5,659 bases of DNA from a virus (Duplodnaviria; Heunggongvirae; Uroviricota; Caudoviricetes). The position numbers and the translations under genes are program-made. The notes under the pieces are model-generated. The model ran no database searches, had not been told where the DNA came from, and saw nothing but the letters and a program-made list of their open reading frames with translations. How positions within the stretch are numbered: position 1 is the stretch's first letter; each line of letters opens with the position of its first letter. The stretch is from positions 1 through 5,659 of IMG/VR virus record IMGVR_UViG_2671181127_000006; one strand, written 5' to 3'. Shown here one piece after another: positions 1 to 5,659 of this stretch.

Positions 1-3000
1 GCTTTGAGTCCTCCGGGGCGGAAACCGCACTGGGCGTGGAGGTGACGAAGGCAAAGCCGGTGACGCGCACCATCACGTCAGCGAACATTGACCGTCTGCG
101 GGTGACCTTCGGGGTGCAGTCACTGGTGGAGACCACCTCAAAGGGTGACCGTAACCCGACGTCTGTCCGCCTGCTGATTCAGCTTGAGCGTGGTGGTAAA
201 TGGATGACGGAAAAGGATGTCACCATTAACGGCAAGACCACCTCGCAGTTCCTGGCGTCGGTGATTCTGGATAATCTGCCGCCCCGGCCCTTTAACATCC
301 GGATGGTCAGGGAGACGGCGGACAGCACCACGGACCAGCTGCAGAATAAGACGCTCTGGTCGTCATACACCGAAATCATCGATGTGAAACAGTGCTACCC
401 GAACACGGCCATTGTGGGGCTGCAGGTGGATGCGGAGCAGTTCGGTGGCCAGCAGATGACGGTGAACTACCATATCCGCGGTCGCATCATCCAGGTGCCG
501 TCAAACTATGACCCGGAAAAACGCACGTACAGTGGTATCTGGGACGGCAGTCTGAAACCGGCATACAGCAACAACCCGGCCTGGTGCCTGTGGGACATGC
601 TGACTCACCCGCGCTACGGGATGGGAAAACGCCTGGAGGCGGCGGATGTGGACAAGTGGGCGCTGTATGCCATCGGGCAGTACTGCGACCAGACGGTCCC
701 GGATGGTTTCGGGGGCACAGAGCCGCGGATGACCTTCAATGCGTACCTGGCACAACAGCGTAAGGCATGGGACGTGCTCAGTGATTTCTGCTCGGCGATG
801 CGCTGTATGCCGGTATGGAACGGCCAGACGCTGACGTTCGTTCAGGACCGCCCGTCGGATGTGGTGTGGCCGTACACCAACAGCGATGTTGTGGTGGATG
901 ACAACGGCGTGGGATTCCGCTACAGCTTCAGTGCCCTGAAGGACCGGCACACGGCGGTGGAGGTGAATTACACCGACCCGCAGAACGGCTGGCAGACCTC
1001 CACGGAACTGGTGGAAGACCCGGAAGCCATACTGCGCTACGGACGCAACCTGCTGAAGATGGACGCGTTCGGCTGCACCAGTCGCGGTCAGGCTCACCGT
1101 GCCGGGCTGTGGGTGATAAAGACGGAACTGCTGGAAACACAGACGGTGGATTTCACGCTCGGGTCACAGGGGCTGCGTCACACGCCGGGTGACATCATTG
1201 AAATCTGTGATAACGACTACGCCGGGACCCTGACCGGCGGACGCATTCTGGCCATCGATGCCGCCAGCCGTACCCTGACGCTGGACCGTGAGGTGACACT
1301 CCCGGAGACGGGGACATCGACGGTGAACCTGATTAACGGCAGCGGTAAGCCGGTGAGTGTGGACATTACCGCACACCCTGCGCCTGACCGGATACAGGTC
1401 AGCCCCCTGCCGGATGGCGTGGAGACATACGGGGTATGGGGACTGAAAATGCCCGGTCTTCGCCGTCGCCTGTTCCGCTGTGTGGCCATCCGGGAAAACA
1501 CGGACGGCACCTTTGCCGTTACGGCGGTGCAGCACGTACCGGAAAAAGAAGCCATCGTGGATAACGGGGCCCGCTTTGAGCCGCAGTCAGGCACCCTGAA
1601 CAGCGTTATCCCACCGGCAGTGCAGCACCTGACGGTGGAGGTGAGCGCAGCTGACAGTCAGTATCTGGCGCTGGCGAAATGGGACACGCCGAGGGTGGTG
1701 AAGGGCGTGCGCTTCAGTCTGCGCCTGACCAGTGGAAGCGGTGAGAACAGCCGCCTGCTGACCACCGCCATCACTGCCGGTACGGAGCACCGTTTCAGTG
1801 GCCTGCCTCTCGGGGAATACACCCTGACGGTCAGGGCGATTAACAGCTATGGCCAGCAGGGCGAACCCGCCACCACCACGTTCCGGATTAACGCACCGGC
1901 AGCGCCTGCCGGTGTTGAACTGACGCCGGGGTATTTTCAGATAACGGCAGTCCCGAAACTGACCATTTATGACCCGACGGTGCAGTTTGAGTTCTGGTTT
2001 TCGGAGGCAAAAATTGCAGACGCCGCACAGGTGGAAACCTCTGCCCGTTATCTGGGGACCGGCAGTCAGTGGAGTGTCTCCGGTCCGCACATTAAGCCCG
2101 GAAAGGATTTCTGGTTTTATGTGCGCAGCGTCAACCTGGTGGGTAAATCTGCTTTTGTGGAAGCCAGTGGACGGGCGAGCAATGATGCTGCGGGCTATCT
2201 GGAACTTTTCCGGGAAAAGATAGGAAAAACGCATCTGGCAGAGGCGCTGTGGGCAGAGATTGACAACAGTCAGCTGAAGGACGAGATGGCGGAAATGCAG
2301 ACCACCATCACAGAAACCCGCAATGAAATCACGCAGACGGTCAGTAAAACGCTGGAGGACCAGAACGCCACCATACAGCAAATCCAGCGTGTGCAGACGG
2401 ACACAAATAATGACCTGAACAGCATGTGGGCGGTGAAGCTACAGCAGATGCAGGATGGTCGTCGCTATATTGCCGGTATCGGTGCCGGTATTGAGAACAC
2501 CCCTGACGGGATGCAGAGCCAGATACTGCTGGCAGCGGACCGTGTGGCATTCATTAATCCGGAGAATGGTGATACCACACCCGCACTGGTCACGCAGGGG
2601 GGACAGACGTTTATCAATGAGGCCCTGATAAAGGTTCTTACCGCCCCCACCATTACCAGCGGCGGCAATCCCCCGGCATTCTCCCTGACGCCGGACGGCA
2701 GGCTGACGGCCCGTAATGCCGATATCAGCGGGAATATCAGTGCCAGTTCCGGTACGCTGAATAACGTGACGATTGCGGAAGACTGCACCATTAATGGAAC
2801 GATGAGCGCTGACCGAATCATTGGTGATATCGTCAAGGGATACACGGTTGATATGGGGCAGGGCGTAATGACTCAGAACCAGCTGACTTTTCAGAAAATG
2901 ATTTTGCTGAAAGACAACATGCCGTTTGATCGCAAGCTTATGCTTATGGCGTATTCATTTTCCAGAGGTGAATTCATCATGAAGATAAATGACAAAGTTG

Positions 3001-3293
3001 TCGTTCATGCCAGGTCAGGCAAAGTCAAAACCGGGGAGCGGGAGGTCCAGATTTCCAAAAACGCCAGCAGATATGAGCCGGTATATTCTGATGTTGGCGG
3101 AAGTGCGTCAGGCTCATGGAGTATTCCTGCCGGACAGGGTGATGTGCGGGTTGAAATTACATTCAGGTATGAAGCAGATGTGCTTTTTTACATGGGTGGT
3201 TCAATACTTCATGATAAGAGTAAAATTCGGATCCATGACCCGGTTCTGTTTTACCTGAAATCCTATACAGACGATTTTGATACCGCATCGTGA
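1..3293 (+). CDS. J: Host specificity / tip attachment protein J (central tail fibre), 5'-partial; stop TGA at 3291-3293
   Basis: The frame is open from nt 3 (codons 3,6,9...) with no stop until 3291, so the GTG at 36 in the ORF track is not the real start and the gene begins upstream of the window. The translation (FESSGAETALGVEVTKAKPVTRTITSANIDRL..., NNPAWCLWDMLTHPRYGMGKRL, KWALYAIGQYCDQTVPDGFGGTEPR, DFCSAMRCMPVWNGQTLTFVQDRPSD, AFGCTSRGQAHRAGLWVIKTELLETQTVDF, LTAPTITSGGNPPAFSLTPDG) matches, from memory, long conserved stretches of phage lambda gpJ. The single 1085-codon ORF has coding-like composition. Confidence 0.9.
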   Translation, partial: FESSGAETALGVEVTKAKPVTRTITSANIDRLRVTFGVQSLVETTSKGDRNPTSVRLLIQLERGGKWMTEKDVTINGKTTSQFLASVILDNLPPRPFNIRMVRETADSTTDQLQNKTLWSSYTEIIDVKQCYPNTAIVGLQVDAEQFGGQQMTVNYHIRGRIIQVPSNYDPEKRTYSGIWDGSLKPAYSNNPAWCLWDMLTHPRYGMGKRLEAADVDKWALYAIGQYCDQTVPDGFGGTEPRMTFNAYLAQQRKAWDVLSDFCSAMRCMPVWNGQTLTFVQDRPSDVVWPYTNSDVVVDDNGVGFRYSFSALKDRHTAVEVNYTDPQNGWQTSTELVEDPEAILRYGRNLLKMDAFGCTSRGQAHRAGLWVIKTELLETQTVDFTLGSQGLRHTPGDIIEICDNDYAGTLTGGRILAIDAASRTLTLDREVTLPETGTSTVNLINGSGKPVSVDITAHPAPDRIQVSPLPDGVETYGVWGLKMPGLRRRLFRCVAIRENTDGTFAVTAVQHVPEKEAIVDNGARFEPQSGTLNSVIPPAVQHLTVEVSAADSQYLALAKWDTPRVVKGVRFSLRLTSGSGENSRLLTTAITAGTEHRFSGLPLGEYTLTVRAINSYGQQGEPATTTFRINAPAAPAGVELTPGYFQITAVPKLTIYDPTVQFEFWFSEAKIADAAQVETSARYLGTGSQWSVSGPHIKPGKDFWFYVRSVNLVGKSAFVEASGRASNDAAGYLELFREKIGKTHLAEALWAEIDNSQLKDEMAEMQTTITETRNEITQTVSKTLEDQNATIQQIQRVQTDTNNDLNSMWAVKLQQMQDGRRYIAGIGAGIENTPDGMQSQILLAADRVAFINPENGDTTPALVTQGGQTFINEALIKVLTAPTITSGGNPPAFSLTPDGRLTARNADISGNISASSGTLNNVTIAEDCTINGTMSADRIIGDIVKGYTVDMGQGVMTQNQLTFQKMILLKDNMPFDRKLMLMAYSFSRGEFIMKINDKVVVHARSGKVKTGEREVQISKNASRYEPVYSDVGGSASGSWSIPAGQGDVRVEITFRYEADVLFYMGGSILHDKSKIRIHDPVLFYLKSYTDDFDTAS
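1611..2175 (+). other. Two tandem fibronectin type III-like (Ig-like) domains inside J
   Basis: Two consecutive ~90-aa segments with a beta-sandwich-like pattern: PPAVQHLTVEVSA...WDTPRVVKGVRFSLRLT...EYTLTVRAINSYGQQGEPATTTFRI and PAGVELTPGYFQITAVPKLTIYDPTVQFEFWFSE...KDFWFYVRSVNLVGKSAFVEA. FN3 domains are established in lambda gpJ. Boundaries are approximate and assigned by eye. Confidence 0.4.
2838..3290 (+). other. Divergent C-terminal distal module of J (putative receptor-binding domain)
   Basis: Recalled similarity to lambda gpJ runs through ...CTINGTMSADRIIGDIVK (ending nt 2837) and is then lost; the last ~151 aa (GYTVDMGQGVMTQNQLTFQKMILLKDNMPFDRKLML...YLKSYTDDFDTAS) do not resemble the lambda LamB-binding C-terminus. 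Composition drops: hand count gives about 35% GC for nt 2941-3000 against about 58% for nt 1201-1260 in the conserved body. Confidence 0.5.
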
Positions 3294-3371
3294 CAGGTGG
3301 ATAGTGAGGTTTCATCCATCTGTTCGTGATTGCCGGAAAACGACAAAAGCCGGACATCGTACATTATCCAC

Positions 3372-3395
3372 GGGTGCCTTTGACTGACGGCACCC
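3372..3395 (+). repeat. Inverted repeat / hairpin downstream of J (possible weak terminator or RNA structure)
   Basis: GGGTGCC (3372-3378) and GGCACCC (3389-3395) are perfect reverse complements around a 10-nt loop, followed by TTTAA. The T-tract is short, so terminator function is uncertain. Confidence 0.3.
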
Positions 3396-3430
3396 TTTAA
3401 CACCAGCCAGTCACAATTTATACCCCTGAT

Positions 3431-3464
3431 CGCAGACCGGGTAACCGGTACTGCGGTTTTTTTT
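3431..3464 (+). terminator. Putative rho-independent terminator between J and the tail-fibre gene
   Basis: CGCAGACCGG (3431-3440), GTAA loop (GNRA-type), CCGGTaCTGCG (3445-3455): a ~10-bp GC-rich stem with one bulged A, then G and an uninterrupted T8 run (3457-3464). Pairing was checked base by base. Confidence 0.6.
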
Positions 3465-3466
3465 AT

Positions 3467-3471
3467 GGGAG
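3467..3471 (+). promoter_or_regulatory. Shine-Dalgarno sequence for the tail-fibre gene
   Basis: GGGAG lies 6 nt upstream of the ATG at 3478. Confidence 0.5.
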
Positions 3472-3477
3472 AAATCT

Positions 3478-3750
3478 ATGACAGTCAGAATATCGGGCGT
3501 GCTGAAGGACGGCACCGGGAAGCCGGTGCCGGGATGCACCATAGAGCTGAAAGCGCGACGCACCACAGAGACAGTGATAGTCACCACGGTGGCGCAGGGG
3601 CAGCCGGGGGAAACCGGCAGTTACAGTTTTGATGTGGAGCCGGGGTGGTACCGGGTGACGCTGAACACGGAAGGGTACGCCCCGTCGTATGTGGGTGACA
3701 TTCTGGTGAAGGCGGATTCTGAGCCGGGAACGCTGAATAAATTTCTGATG
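3478..3750 (+). other. Conserved N-terminal domain of side tail fibre (probable tail-attachment domain)
   Basis: The first ~90 aa align with the lambda Stf N-terminus, including GTLN.FL near residue 84-90. An Ala/Glu/Lys-rich predicted helical linker ([34 protein letters not shown]) follows and leads into the collagen block. Confidence 0.5.
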
Positions 3751-4944
3751 GAACAGGATGAGGCGCAGTATTACCCGAAAGCGCTTGCAGAGCTGGAAGC
3801 GGTGGCAGCGGAAATCCTGAAGCGTGCTGAAGCGTCGGCGGCGAGTGCAGAGGAAGCGAAGAAACGGGCAGAGAATGCCCGGGGACCGGCGGGCGAGAAG
3901 GGGGACACAGGTCCACAGGGTGCCACAGGGGCACAGGGACCAGCCGGGGCAACGGGGGCGGTCGGACCAAAAGGTGAGCCGGGGCCAAAGGGAGAACGGG
4001 GAGAAACAGGTCCACAGGGACCGAAGGGCGATAAAGGTGACCCGGGCGGACCGCCGGGGCCGAAAGGTGACACCGGCCCACGTGGAGAGGCCGGACCACC
4101 CGGACCACAGGGTCCGGCAGGGCAAACCGGCCCGAAAGGGGATAAAGGTGAACCCGGCGCAACAGGTCCGGCAGGTCCCGCAGGCCCTCGGGGAGAAACC
4201 GGCCCCGCAGGTCCTGCGGGTCCCGCAGGCAGTGTCGCCAGTGTTCCGGATGCCAGCACATCACAGAAAGGTGTTGTACAGCTGAGCAGCGATACCAACA
4301 GCGATGATGAAACAAAAGCGGCAACCCCAAAGGCTGTGAAAGCGGTAATGGCAGAAGTGCAGGCAGCAAAAACGAAGGCAGAAGAGGCAGCAACCCGGGC
4401 AGCAGTCCCCGGACCGAAGGGGGACAGGGGGGAACCTGGCGCACCTGGTGCAGTGGGGCCCGCAGGCCCACGGGGACCGGCTGGTGCAGCTGGTCCCAAA
4501 GGTGATGCAGGCCCGGCAGGCCCCGCAGGAAAGGATGGTACCGCCGGAGCGGAAGGTAAGGCAGGTCCGGCAGGGCCACGAGGTGAAAGGGGACCAGCGG
4601 GGGCACAGGGTGTTCCGGGGCCGGTTGGTCCGGCAGGTCCTGCGGGTAAAACGGGGCCACAGGGCCCTGCCGGAGAGCGAGGGCCGATGGGACCGCCCGG
4701 GCCAGCAGGTGATGCAGGGAATGGCGTTATAAAAGGCATTCGGCTGGGAAATGAGAGCGTGTTTCGTCCACATGAAGGCTATATCAACTGGGATATACGC
4801 TTGACGGATGGCAGTGTGCTTACGGGAGTGGTGGGAATGAATGCGTCAGGGACAAACCGGATAAATGAAATCTATTACAGGCCGTTACAGATAACAACAG
4901 ATGGCGTTTACTGGCGTACTATTGGCATTGATAATGGTATGTGA
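3478..4944 (+). CDS. stf: Side tail fibre protein with collagen-like Gly-X-Y repeats (lambda Stf-like N-terminus)
   Basis: ATG at 3478 with upstream GGGAG, 488 codons, stop TGA at 4942-4944. N-terminus [26 protein letters not shown]... matches from memory the lambda Stf N-terminus ([26 protein letters not shown]...). It contains two long perfect (Gly-X-Y)n blocks and the conserved tail-fibre motif [27 protein letters not shown]. Confidence 0.9.
3883..4227 (+). repeat. Collagen-like Gly-X-Y block 1 (18 triplets, one extra Gly, then 20 triplets)
   Basis: Read directly from the translation: [116 protein letters not shown]. The DNA is a low-complexity GGN-CCN repeat. Confidence 0.85.
4255..4350 (+). 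other. Phage tail-fibre repeat motif between the two collagen blocks
   Basis: [32 protein letters not shown] resembles, from memory, the conserved lambda Stf motif (..[29 protein letters not shown]), the Phage_fiber_2-type repeat. It is followed by an Ala/Glu/Lys-rich helix ([18 protein letters not shown]). Confidence 0.5.
4411..4725 (+). repeat. Collagen-like Gly-X-Y block 2 (35 uninterrupted triplets)
   Basis: [105 protein letters not shown], with glycine at every third position throughout. Confidence 0.85.
4726..4941 (+). other. Small C-terminal tip domain of the collagen-like fibre (function unknown, putative receptor-binding or trimerisation knob)
   Basis: The 72-aa non-collagenous tail [72 protein letters not shown] is rich in aromatic and beta-branched residues. 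Its DNA is visibly less GC-rich than the collagen stalk. Confidence 0.4.
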
Positions 4945-5202
4945 GCAGATTATACCATCCTTACCGGATGAGATATAAAAGTTAAAAGAGGAAATGTCGG
5001 GTTAGCATCTTTCTGATTCGTCCGGCTGATATCACCACGCCATATGTTTACGCTGAACATGGCGGATAAAAAGACGGGGGAGCAGGCAGCAGACTCCCCT
5101 GAAAGTTATCCCTGTCATTTTTACATTTTTATTCTGTGTCACGGTTACACATATTTTCCCGAATAACCACTACTGATACTTACCGTATTCTGGTGATTAT
5201 TT

Positions 5203-5232
5203 TTGTGATGTGAACTGCATTTTATTTATAAA
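5203..5232 (+). promoter_or_regulatory. Candidate sigma70-like promoter upstream of the tfa-like gene
   Basis: TTGTGA (5203-5208), 18-nt spacer, TATAAA (5227-5232), inside an AT-rich spacer about 60 nt upstream of the ATG at 5294. Found by eye only; AT-rich DNA yields many such matches. Confidence 0.2.
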
Positions 5233-5278
5233 GAGCAAACAGATTAACAGCCGCGCGTTTTACTGTGCAGTGCTGCGA

Positions 5279-5283
5279 AAGGG
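5279..5283 (+). promoter_or_regulatory. Possible Shine-Dalgarno sequence for the tfa-like gene
   Basis: AAGGG lies 10 nt upstream of the ATG at 5294; the spacing is slightly long. Confidence 0.35.
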
Positions 5284-5293
5284 TAACGGATTT

Positions 5294-5659
5294 ATGATTA
5301 TTAAAAAATTCACGCTGTATTCCCCGGAGAAGGCAGATGTCCCCGGGGCAATGTATCTGAAGTCAGAAGACGGCAGGGACTGGTATGAAAGCCAGTCTTT
5401 ATTTTCAGCAGATACGCTGAAGGTGGCTTATGACAGTAACGGAATAATCTGCGGTATAAGCAAGGATGTATCTGTTATGTGGCCTGTTAACATGAGTGTT
5501 GCAGAAGTGCCTGATTCGGAGGAAAACCGCAAGGCAGACAGCTCAGGGCGCTGGAAGTTTGACGGGGAGCGAATAGTCGACACACTGACAGCGGAGAAAG
5601 CACGCGGGCTGAAGGGAGATGAAATCAACGCTTGGCGTAATGCGATGGAAGCGGCGAAC
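5294..5659 (+). CDS. tfa: Tail fibre assembly protein (Tfa-type chaperone), 3'-partial
   Basis: ATG at 5294 opens a frame that runs to the window end without a stop, which is why it is absent from the ORF track. Translation by hand: MIIKKFTLYSPEKADVPGAMYLKSEDGRDWYESQSLFSADTLKVAYDSNGIICGISKDVSVMWPVNMSVAEVPDSEENRKADSSGRWKFDGERIVDTLTAEKARGLKGDEINAWRNAMEAAN. The pattern SEDG..WYE ... DT.K..YD.N ... EVPD...NR.AD.SG.W.F matches, from memory, enterobacterial prophage Tfa proteins (TfaE-like, phage tail fibre assembly family). Confidence 0.65.
   Translation, partial: MIIKKFTLYSPEKADVPGAMYLKSEDGRDWYESQSLFSADTLKVAYDSNGIICGISKDVSVMWPVNMSVAEVPDSEENRKADSSGRWKFDGERIVDTLTAEKARGLKGDEINAWRNAMEAAN

What the first reader, a model, noticed from the sequence alone, without database searches (positions are those of the whole stretch)
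3883..4725. Bipartite collagen-like stalk in the side tail fibre (38 and 35 Gly-X-Y triplets) separated by a conserved fibre motif
Two long, essentially perfect collagen-like blocks rich in [12 protein letters not shown] and GER triplets (charge pairs typical of prokaryotic collagen-like triple helices, which lack hydroxyproline) flank a conserved non-collagenous motif. This points to a long, rigid trimeric stalk presenting the small C-terminal knob far from the tail tip. The repetitive GGN-CCN DNA is a substrate for slipped-strand or unequal recombination, so fibre length may vary between relatives.
Basis: seen in the sequence. Interest (0 to 1): 0.5.

Follow-up and report, generated by a model that had tools for sequence, protein, structure and literature searches.

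The report
Collagen-like shaft of prophage side fibre
This stretch encodes the two-part collagen-like shaft of an E. coli prophage side tail fibre, a protein class described in 2012 whose shaft length was already known to vary in whole Gly-X-Y triplets, so the finding is real but ordinary.

Summary
Window 3883-4725 lies in a 488-aa ORF (3478-4944, + strand). It encodes two Gly-X-Y blocks, 118 aa and 105 aa, separated by a 58-aa non-collagen segment that carries the Pfam Phage_fiber_2 repeat.

One correction: block 1 is not perfect. It has a one-residue interruption, GDP-G-GPP (G190).

The gene follows gpJ and starts with the Stf collar domain (PF08400; PDB 9e7m, E 3.5e-29). It ends in a 72-aa beta-rich knob and is followed by a Tfa-like gene. 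This is the 'EPclC' architecture of Ghosh et al. 2012 (PLoS One). That paper already reported the conserved G-X-P-G-G-P-X-G interruption, length differences in multiples of three residues, and experimental triple-helix and trimer formation for sister proteins.

- One allele with no point differences lacks 36 bp between two 9-bp direct repeats.
- Eight others lack 45 bp starting at the same left edge.
- More distant homologues carry 11-45 triplets in block 1 and 18-72 in block 2.

Near-identical relatives also switch to four different knobs inside block 2.

'Rigid' is not supported. Published EM and cryo-EM indicate a hinged, flexible shaft.

Verdict: already known; low interest.

The parts
36..3293 (+). 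C-terminal 1085 aa of the lambda gpJ-like central tail fibre / tip attachment protein. It is context: the fibre gene lies directly downstream.
   Evidence: Pfam Ig_J, Phage-tail_3, FNIII-A_GpJ and Phage_Tail_Tip, E 1e-31 to 1e-40. Annotated gpJ in relatives.
3478..4944 (+). Side tail fibre gene, 488 aa plus stop. It has the EPclC-type architecture: PfN, Col1, Pf2, Col2, small knob.
   Evidence: PHROG 366 'tail fiber protein' E 1.9e-119. 99.9% identical (one synonymous difference) to the annotated fibre CDS in E. coli S19-651.
3478..3879 (+). PfN, the prophage tail fibre N-terminal domain (aa 1-134). Aa 1-91 are the collar domain that docks on the tail. Aa ~98-135 are Ala/Glu/Lys-rich and probably form a short trimeric coiled coil leading into the collagen.
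   Evidence: PF08400 E 1.6e-42 over the full profile. PDB 9e7m Ur-lambda Stf collar E 3.5e-29. Function of the collar from PMC12617516. The coiled coil is an inference from PMC3368898.
3883..4236 (+). Collagen-like block 1 (aa 136-253): 18 triplets, one extra Gly, 20 triplets, then GSV.
   Evidence: Triplet count. PF01391.
4036..4059 (+). Conserved interruption motif G-D-P-G-G-P-P-G (aa 187-194), with the extra residue G190 at nt 4045-4047. It is a probable kink and a junction scar.
   Evidence: The motif G-X-P-G-G-P-X-G is described as conserved in PMC3368898. It is present in 19 of 120 homologues, and the same GEPGGP ends block 1 directly before Pf2 in other relatives.
4237..4410 (+). Non-collagenous joint (aa 254-311). 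It contains the Phage_fiber_2 (Pf2) repeat at aa 260-301 (nt 4255-4380), followed by an Ala/Glu/Lys-rich helical stretch.
   Evidence: PF03406 E 3.7e-16. Matches Mu tail fibre protein S, chain residues 106-154 (5yvq/8ju3). The equivalent segment of phi24B gp61 is described as a short coiled-coil motif.
4411..4725 (+). Collagen-like block 2 (aa 312-416): 35 uninterrupted triplets. It is also the zone where relatives switch to other C-terminal knobs.
4445..4489 (+). Deletion hot spot. In relatives, 36 bp (4445-4480) are lost between 9-bp direct repeats CTGGTGCAG (4445-4453 and 4481-4489), or 45 bp (4445-4489) are lost between CTGGT repeats (4445 and 4490).
4726..4944 (+). C-terminal knob (aa 417-488) plus stop. 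It is a small beta-rich tip domain, presumably for trimerisation and receptor binding.
5294..5659 (+). Start of the tail-fibre-assembly-like gene (DUF4376 protein in RefSeq), cut by the window end. It covaries with the knob type.
   Evidence: PHROG 11571 E 6.6e-70 and PHROG 136 'tail fiber assembly protein' E 6e-36. Pfam Caudo_TAP scores 20.7 bits, below the cut-off of 22.1. Annotations. Covariation.

Best explanation
The region encodes the shaft of a lambdoid prophage side tail fibre (an Stf homologue) of the published EPclC class.

Inferred assembly: three chains form one fibre. The N-terminal PfN domains dock as a collar on the tail just above the tip, as in Ur-lambda. A short coiled coil brings the chains into register. 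The shaft then runs through a 118-residue collagen triple helix with one conserved register break, a 58-residue Pf2-containing joint, and a second 105-residue triple helix. Together the two helices give about 64 nm of thin shaft.

A 72-residue beta-rich knob related to Mu/P1-type fibre tips ends the fibre. It presumably nucleates trimerisation with help from the downstream Tfa-like chaperone, and binds the cell-surface receptor. The shaft therefore acts as a long, semi-flexible spacer. It lets the knob sample the cell surface ahead of the central gpJ fibre.

At the DNA level the collagen-coding blocks are the plastic part of the gene:
- In-frame deletions between short direct repeats change the number of triplets.
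- Crossovers inside block 2 exchange the knob together with its chaperone gene.

Shown here: the architecture, the homologies, the indels and the mosaic joints. Inferred from published work on sister proteins: trimer and triple-helix formation, docking, chaperone dependence and receptor binding.
For: Architecture: (PF08400, PF01391, PF03406), with synteny gpJ, fibre, Tfa-like gene.

N-terminus: it matches the Ur-lambda Stf collar 9e7m at E 3.5e-29. In that cryo-EM structure, 12 N-terminal domains form a collar at the gpV/gpM junction and carry 4 trimeric fibres.

Class: Ghosh et al. 2012 define EPclC as PfN-Col-Pf2-Col with a non-PfC C-terminus (P-EibA ORF-401 and ECED1 proteins). They describe the G-X-P-G-G-P-X-G interruption and length steps of 3 aa. 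They show by SEC-MALLS/AUC, CD and EM that EPclA is a trimer with a true triple helix (Tm 42 C) and a hinged stalk. P-EibA orf-401 is 99% identical to nt 1-1027 of this gene. The X/Y composition matches.

Indels: a 36-bp deletion with zero other differences sits between 9-bp repeats, and a 45-bp deletion shares the same left edge in 8 genomes.

Length range: one homologue family with the same knob has 17 different block-2 lengths, 36-72 triplets. Block 1 ranges from 11 to 45 triplets.

Mosaicism: seven relatives are identical up to different points inside block 2, then carry four different knobs. All 13 distinct end points of near-identical matches lie inside the two collagen blocks. The Tfa-like gene covaries with the knob.

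Knob homology.
Against: - No experiment exists on an EPclC-type protein itself. Triple helix and trimer are extrapolated from EPclA/B.
- The receptor is unknown.
- Whether this prophage is inducible or the fibre is assembled is unknown. One relative carries a frameshifted copy.
- The clustering of mosaic joints in collagen DNA is partly expected, because block 2 directly abuts the variable knob.
- Pfam Caudo_TAP for the downstream gene is below its cut-off.
Confidence: 0.85

Rival explanations
1. The repeat blocks are an assembly artefact (collapsed or expanded repeats), so the triplet numbers are not real.
For: Repeat regions can be mis-assembled. Alleles of three lengths exist.
Against: An allele of the same length encoding the identical protein (one synonymous difference) occurs in an independent complete genome, S19-651. 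The shorter alleles recur in 8-9 other complete genomes and have clean microhomology-bounded, in-frame junctions. The DNA is only weakly repetitive, with no tandem array beyond about 2 copies of 9 bp, so collapse is unlikely.
Confidence: 0.02
2. It is a bacterial cell-surface collagen-like adhesin (like Scl1/2 or BclA) that merely sits in a prophage, not a virion component.
For: Collagen-like proteins of Gram-positive bacteria are surface adhesins. BclA gives a weak hit (E 1.3e-7). Relatives carry an Eib/YadA-like adhesin gene two genes downstream.
Against: No signal peptide or anchor is evident in the sequence. The N-terminus is the Stf collar domain seen on Ur-lambda virions. The gene sits between gpJ and a Tfa-like gene. 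The knob resembles phage fibre tips.
Confidence: 0.03
3. The Gly-X-Y blocks are a disordered or flexible low-complexity linker that does not fold as a collagen triple helix in the absence of hydroxyproline.
For: There is no prolyl hydroxylase in E. coli. The phi24B gp61 shaft is not resolved by cryo-EM. No direct data exist for this protein.
Against: EPclA, with the same composition and also without hydroxyproline, shows a collagen CD spectrum, cooperative melting at 42 C and rod-like EM images. Here there are 72 canonical triplets with 53% Pro in X and 15 K/R-G-D/E pairs. The strict in-frame, 9-bp-multiple nature of all indels argues for selection on the triplet register.
Confidence: 0.07

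Closest known systems
EPclC-type E. coli prophage collagen-like proteins (Ghosh et al. 2012, PLoS One 7:e37872), e.g. P-EibA ORF-401 (479 aa; Col 117 + 75 aa), ECED1_2081 (520 aa; 118 + 117) and ECED1_1681 (493 aa; 106 + 102)
   Same: Same domain order: PfN, Col, Pf2, Col, then a non-PfC C-terminus. No long PCoil. Same G-X-P-G-G-P-X-G interruption in the first Col. Same X/Y preferences. The first 1027 nt are 99% identical to P-EibA orf-401.
   Different: Col2 has 35 triplets here against 25 in P-EibA. The C-terminal knob is a 72-aa 'YYRPLQ...WRT(I/V)G' domain instead of the '...LFQRIV' type of ORF-401. This knob was not characterised in that paper.
[not shown]
   Same: Bipartite collagen shaft split by Pf2, with a small C-terminal globular domain. 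Trimeric lateral fibre.
   Different: EPclB has a ~109-aa PCoil rod before the collagen and a PfC (PF06820) C-terminus. phi24B is a podovirus with a different fibre attachment.
Bacteriophage Ur-lambda side tail fibre Stf (PDB 9e7m; Yu et al. 2025, Sci Adv)
   Same: Homologous N-terminal collar domain (E 3.5e-29). Same gene position after J. A Pf2 repeat and a chaperone gene downstream. Role as an accessory fibre that speeds adsorption.
   Different: The lambda Stf shaft is not collagen. Its distal part is T4 gp37-like and binds OmpC. None of that is present here.
Mu/P1 tail fibre S/S' variable tip with Tfa (U/U') chaperones (PDB 5yvq, 8ju3)
   Different: Mu and P1 fibres have no collagen. No invertible segment is present here. 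The sequence similarity of the knob is below the phmmer threshold.
Collagen-like repeats in the antireceptor of Streptococcus thermophilus phages (Duplessis & Moineau 2001) and in Guarani virophage ORF8
   Same: Gly-X-Y repeats flank the host-range-determining domain. They are proposed recombination hot spots, and in-frame deletions of repeats change host range.
   Different: These are unrelated proteins and hosts. The resemblance is functional, not homology.

Membership tests
EPclC (E. coli prophage collagen-like protein, type C; Ghosh et al. 2012) | N-terminal PfN domain (PF08400) | tested here: met
   PF08400 E 1.6e-42, aa 1-134, covering the full profile.
EPclC (E. coli prophage collagen-like protein, type C; Ghosh et al. 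2012) | Two (Gly-X-Y)n Col domains separated by a Pf2 repeat (PF03406) | tested here: met
   Col blocks at aa 136-253 and 312-416. PF01391 E 9.2e-34 and PF03406 at aa 260-301, E 3.7e-16.
EPclC (E. coli prophage collagen-like protein, type C; Ghosh et al. 2012) | C-terminal region without homology to PfC (PF06820); long PCoil usually absent | tested here: met
   No PF06820 hit. The knob differs from the '...GLFQRAY' PfC-type ends of relatives. Collagen starts 2 residues after PfN, so there is no ~110-aa PCoil.
EPclC (E. coli prophage collagen-like protein, type C; Ghosh et al. 2012) | Single G-X-P-G-G-P-X-G interruption in the first Col domain | tested here: met
   GDPGGPPG at aa 187-194. Described.
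EPclC (E. coli prophage collagen-like protein, type C; Ghosh et al. 2012) | Pro about 50% in X, Asp/Glu in X, Lys/Arg/Ala/Gln/Thr in Y, no aromatic residues or Cys | tested here: met
   One search compared with Table 4 of the paper.
EPclC (E. coli prophage collagen-like protein, type C; Ghosh et al. 2012) | Encoded in the tail module of an E. coli prophage | tested here: met
   gpJ lies upstream and a Tfa-like gene downstream. Chromosomal prophage context in 150 complete E. coli genomes.
EPclC (E. coli prophage collagen-like protein, type C; Ghosh et al. 2012) | Forms a trimer with a collagen triple helix | not testable with these tools
   Shown experimentally only for EPclA/B. Needs CD and SEC-MALLS of this protein, or a trimer structure prediction.
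Lambda Stf side tail fibre family | N-terminal collar domain homologous to Stf residues 1-91 | tested here: met
   9e7m_Ta E 3.5e-29, aligning aa 1-91 to 1-91.
Lambda Stf side tail fibre family | Gene downstream of J (with or without lom) and followed by a tail fibre assembly gene | tested here: met
   lom is absent here but present in relatives L002 and P-EibA. Pfam Caudo_TAP is only sub-threshold (20.7 vs 22.1 bits), but PHROG 136 gives E 6e-36.
Lambda Stf side tail fibre family | T4 gp37-like distal shaft and OmpC-binding tip | tested here: not met
   No such match in Pfam or PDB searches. The shaft is collagen and the tip is a different small domain. It is therefore an Stf homologue by its N-terminus and position only.
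Mu/P1 S-type fibre tip domain | C-terminal tip fold shared with Mu S/S' | tested here: inconclusive
   [not shown]

The most novel reading that the evidence does not exclude
The collagen-coding blocks may act as a general recombination adaptor. Any Gly-X-Y stretch can pair in frame with any other. Crossovers inside block 2 would then move knob-plus-chaperone cassettes between lambdoid, Mu-like and P1-like fibres. A recurrent deletion site (4445-4489) would tune shaft length, perhaps to match the depth of the host's O-antigen or capsule layer. The conserved GxPGGPxG interruption would be the scar of such an out-of-register junction.
Probability: 0.4. Interest if true: 0.35.

Novelty: already known. 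Interest (0 to 1): 0.2.

Why it matters
Side-fibre knobs and shaft length influence which E. coli strains a temperate phage can adsorb to. That in turn affects how prophage cargo spreads; relatives of this prophage carry Eib immunoglobulin-binding adhesins, and sister fibres sit on Stx phages.

The class, its triple-helical nature and its length variability are already published, so this window adds little. What it adds is a clean natural example of microhomology-bounded triplet deletions, and of knob swapping inside the collagen block.

It could serve as a convenient model for testing whether fibre length matters for adsorption. It is also a naturally modular scaffold for engineering receptor-binding domains.

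Tried and rejected
- Tandem Repeats Finder and direct-repeat search on the collagen DNA found only about 2 copies of 9-bp units and degenerate 39-104-nt families at 60-80% identity. The idea of a long perfect tandem array prone to classical slipped-strand expansion was dropped in favour of short-microhomology deletion.
- The Rfam scan of the window gave no hits.
- The promoter/terminator scan gave nothing above shuffled expectation within the gene. One terminator-like hairpin lies upstream, at 3443-3458.
- Sequence search of the knob against PDB gave only a weak hit to the C-terminus of the phiTE short tail fibre, a part that was not modelled experimentally.
- An exhaustive phmmer search of the knob against 1.8 billion representatives gave only 9 hits at E <= 1e-3. 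The six small hits I read all follow collagen triplets or a fibre motif. Two giant multi-repeat proteins (P0121, P0127) were not followed up.
It was rerun without that row.
- The 349-nt gap after the fibre gene was translated in six frames. It holds no credible ORF.
- The surface-adhesin, artefact and disordered-linker readings were considered and rejected (see rival explanations).

Full report
**1. What is in the sequence**

The window carries three + strand genes:
- the last 1085 codons of a lambda gpJ-like tip attachment protein (36-3293);
- a 488-codon ORF (3478-4944);
- the start of a further gene at 5294.

The finding's coordinates (3883-4725) correspond exactly to residues G136-G416 of the 488-aa protein.

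Block 2 (aa 312-416) is 35 uninterrupted Gly-X-Y triplets. Block 1 (aa 136-253) is 18 triplets, one inserted residue (G-D-P-G-G-P-P-G; G190 at nt 4045-4047), then 20 canonical triplets plus GSV. 'Essentially perfect' misses a single register break.

Pfam assigns these domains:
- Prophage tail fibre N-terminal domain (PF08400, E 1.6e-42, aa 1-134);
- Collagen (PF01391, E 9.2e-34);
- Phage_fiber_2 (PF03406, E 3.7e-16, aa 260-301).

No Pfam family covers the last 72 residues. The Gly-X-Y periodicity is far beyond chance. The long minus-strand ORFs over the region are a by-product of the GGN-CCN composition.

**2. Identity of the gene**

- PHROG 366 'tail fiber protein' matches at E 1.9e-119. The downstream gene matches tail-fibre and tail-fibre-assembly PHROGs at E 6.6e-70 and 6e-36.
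- Residues 1-91 match the Ur-lambda Stf chain in PDB 9e7m at E 3.5e-29. In that cryo-EM study, twelve N-terminal domains form a collar at the gpV/gpM junction and carry four trimeric side fibres. These fibres speed adsorption.
- megablast finds the gene only on chromosomes of E. coli: 150 of 5426 complete genomes, always annotated 'prophage tail fiber N-terminal domain-containing protein'.
- A copy of the same length, with one synonymous difference, sits after gpJ in strain S19-651.
- Prophage P-EibA orf-401 is 99% identical over the first 1027 nt.

This is the side tail fibre of a lambdoid prophage.

**3. It is a published class**

Ghosh et al. 2012 (PMC3368898) catalogued 'EHEC prophage collagen-like proteins' EPclA-D. 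EPclC is PfN-Col-Pf2-Col with a C-terminus unrelated to PfC and usually no PCoil. Their examples are P-EibA ORF-401 (479 aa; Col 117 + 75 aa), ECED1_2081 (520 aa; 118 + 117) and ECED1_1681 (493 aa; 106 + 102). The window protein (488 aa; 118 + 105) fits this class.

The paper states the following:
- Col lengths differ by multiples of three residues.
[quoted passage not shown] This is exactly the GDPGGPPG found here.
- Pro dominates the X position, Asp/Glu sit in X, and Lys/Arg/Ala/Gln/Thr sit in Y.

The window shows X = Pro 53%, Asp/Glu 25%; Y = Ala 33%, Lys/Arg 25%, Thr 12.5%. It has 15 K/R-G-D/E pairs and no aromatic residues or Cys.

For EPclA the authors showed trimers, a collagen CD spectrum with cooperative melting at 42 C, a C-terminal trimerisation domain and a dumbbell with a hinged stalk. 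Every sequence-level membership criterion I could test is met. Triple-helix formation of this particular protein cannot be tested with these tools.

**4. 'Rigid' is not supported**

- EPclA stalks bend in EM.
[quoted passage not shown] The shaft is unresolved by cryo-EM and the authors call it flexible.
- In the window protein, the G190 insertion and the 58-residue Pf2 joint are the likely hinges (inference).
- Using the canonical 0.286 nm rise per residue, the two helices would span about 34 nm and 30 nm.

**5. Length variation is confirmed and can be traced to specific events**

Ten of the 5426 complete genomes carry this fibre with the same knob:

| Allele length | Genomes | Difference from the window |
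|---|---|---|
| 1467 nt | 1 | same length (one synonymous difference) |
| 1431 nt | 1 | 36-bp deletion |
| 1422 nt | 7 | 45-bp deletion |
| 1421 nt | 1 | 45-bp deletion plus a frameshift |

The 1431-nt allele (JNEC-KY179) has no point difference from the window. It lacks nt 4445-4480, a 36-bp segment bounded by the 9-bp direct repeats CTGGTGCAG at 4445 and 4481. The 1422-nt alleles lack 4445-4489, bounded by CTGGT at 4445 and 4490. Relatives with other knobs have the long form, so both events are deletions of 4 or 5 triplets with a common left edge.

More distant homologues vary much more:
- One family with an identical C-terminal domain shows 17 different block-2 lengths, between 36 and 72 triplets.
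- Other relatives have block 2 as short as 18-28 triplets.
- Block 1 ranges over 11, 18, 19, 22, 28, 30, 32, 38, 39, 41 and 45 triplets.

The DNA itself is only weakly repetitive. There are 9-bp units of about 2 copies and degenerate longer families. All four Gly codons are used about evenly. The mechanism is therefore deletion between short microhomologies rather than slippage in a long perfect array. The same facts, together with the independent allele of the same length encoding the identical protein, argue against an assembly artefact.

**6. The collagen blocks are also the mosaic joints**

Seven relatives are essentially identical through PfN, Col1, Pf2 and part of Col2. They then diverge at different points inside Col2 into four C-terminal types:
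- the window's 'YYRPLQ...WRTIG' knob;
- a related '...FLQVHNGSQWVTI' knob;
- a PfC-like '...GLFQRAY' domain;
- the P-EibA '...TLFQRIV' domain.

In this set Col2 has 25, 30, 31, 35, 38 or 39 triplets.

Near-identical matches end at gene positions 444, 461, 590, 599, 1027, 1048, 1088, 1109, 1154, 1184-1190 and 1224. All of these lie within Col1 (406-759) or Col2 (934-1248).

The downstream chaperone-like gene changes with the knob. The last collagen triplets ([14 protein letters not shown]) travel with this knob into fibres of otherwise different architecture.

In EPclB-like relatives, Col1 ends '...GEPGGP' directly before Pf2. The GxPGGPxG interruption therefore looks like the scar of a junction between two collagen segments. 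This is an inference.

Collagen-like repeats flanking the host-range domain are an existing idea from Streptococcus thermophilus phages and the Guarani virophage. There they are proposed as recombination hot spots, and their in-frame deletions change host range. This part is consistent with known concepts, not new. A caveat: block 2 directly abuts the variable knob, so some clustering of joints there is expected anyway.

**7. The knob**

- The 72-aa C-terminus has no Pfam family.
- It has only 9 relatives at E <= 1e-3 among 1.8 billion representative proteins. The six small hits I read all sit behind collagen triplets or a fibre motif.
- tblastn finds 25-49% identical C-termini in fibres of other Stx and E. 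coli phages, a P1-like phage, inserted Mu-like phages, and Klebsiella and Pectobacterium phages.
- An AF2 monomer model built from an 8-sequence alignment is all-beta with mean pLDDT 76.
- A profile of the family hits the C-terminus of the phiTE short tail fibre at E 1.3e-5. That part of the phiTE fibre was not modelled experimentally.

It is reasonable, but unproven, that this is a trimerising, receptor-binding tip of the Mu/P1 S type that needs the downstream Tfa-like protein to fold.

**8. Verdict**

The object is an already described class (EPclC). Its collagen nature, interruption motif and length polymorphism were published in 2012, and the protein is in RefSeq.

The specific deletion junctions, the in-collagen knob swaps and the Mu-like affinity of the small knob are modest additions. 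Novelty: already known. Interest: about 0.2.

Noticed in passing
window 4945-5293: A 349-nt AT-rich (41% GC) non-coding gap separates the fibre stop from the Tfa-like gene. Relatives with other knobs have gaps of only 14-64 nt. The gap is 99.7-100% conserved in the four fetched relatives that carry this knob type (L001, L002, L003, L009), and holds no credible ORF and no Rfam hit. It contains a GC-rich hairpin (about 5076-5099, GGGGAGCAGGCAGCAGACTCCCC) without a T tract.
   Followed up: partly
window 3294-3477: No lom gene lies between gpJ and the fibre gene, unlike lambda, P-EibA and relative L002, which have an Ail/Lom gene there. A terminator-like hairpin with a T run sits at 3443-3458, just 20 nt before the fibre start codon.
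   Followed up: no
window 1-2500 vs 2500-5659, compared with locus L001: The window and E. coli S19-651 differ at about 165 positions in the gpJ part (nt 1-2500) but at only 3 positions from nt 2500 onward. A recombination joint therefore lies inside gpJ, and the distal gpJ, fibre and chaperone travel together.
   Followed up: partly
loci L002, L003, L005-L008, downstream of the DUF4376 gene: Most relatives carry a YadA-like / Eib immunoglobulin-binding adhesin gene right after the fibre-chaperone pair, as in prophage P-EibA. In S19-651 the prophage ends there instead, next to a ykgJ-family gene and potB. Whether the window's source has an eib gene cannot be seen, because the window ends at 5659.
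   Followed up: no
proteins P0121 (4332 aa) and P0127 (2990 aa): Two giant proteins match part of the knob (query aa 20-58 or 6-34) in 12 and 8 separate stretches. This suggests a repeated module related to the knob core in very large proteins of unknown origin.
   Followed up: no
locus L003 2001-3421 (E. coli STEC2018-607): The orthologous fibre gene is a pseudogene there. It has a 1-nt deletion at the position equivalent to window 3680, in addition to the 45-bp collagen deletion.
   Followed up: partly
window 3883-4725: Gly codons in the collagen blocks are spread almost evenly over GGA, GGC, GGG and GGT (18, 15, 18, 25), and Pro over all four codons. This keeps nucleotide-level repetition low despite the perfect protein repeat. 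It may limit slippage.
   Followed up: no
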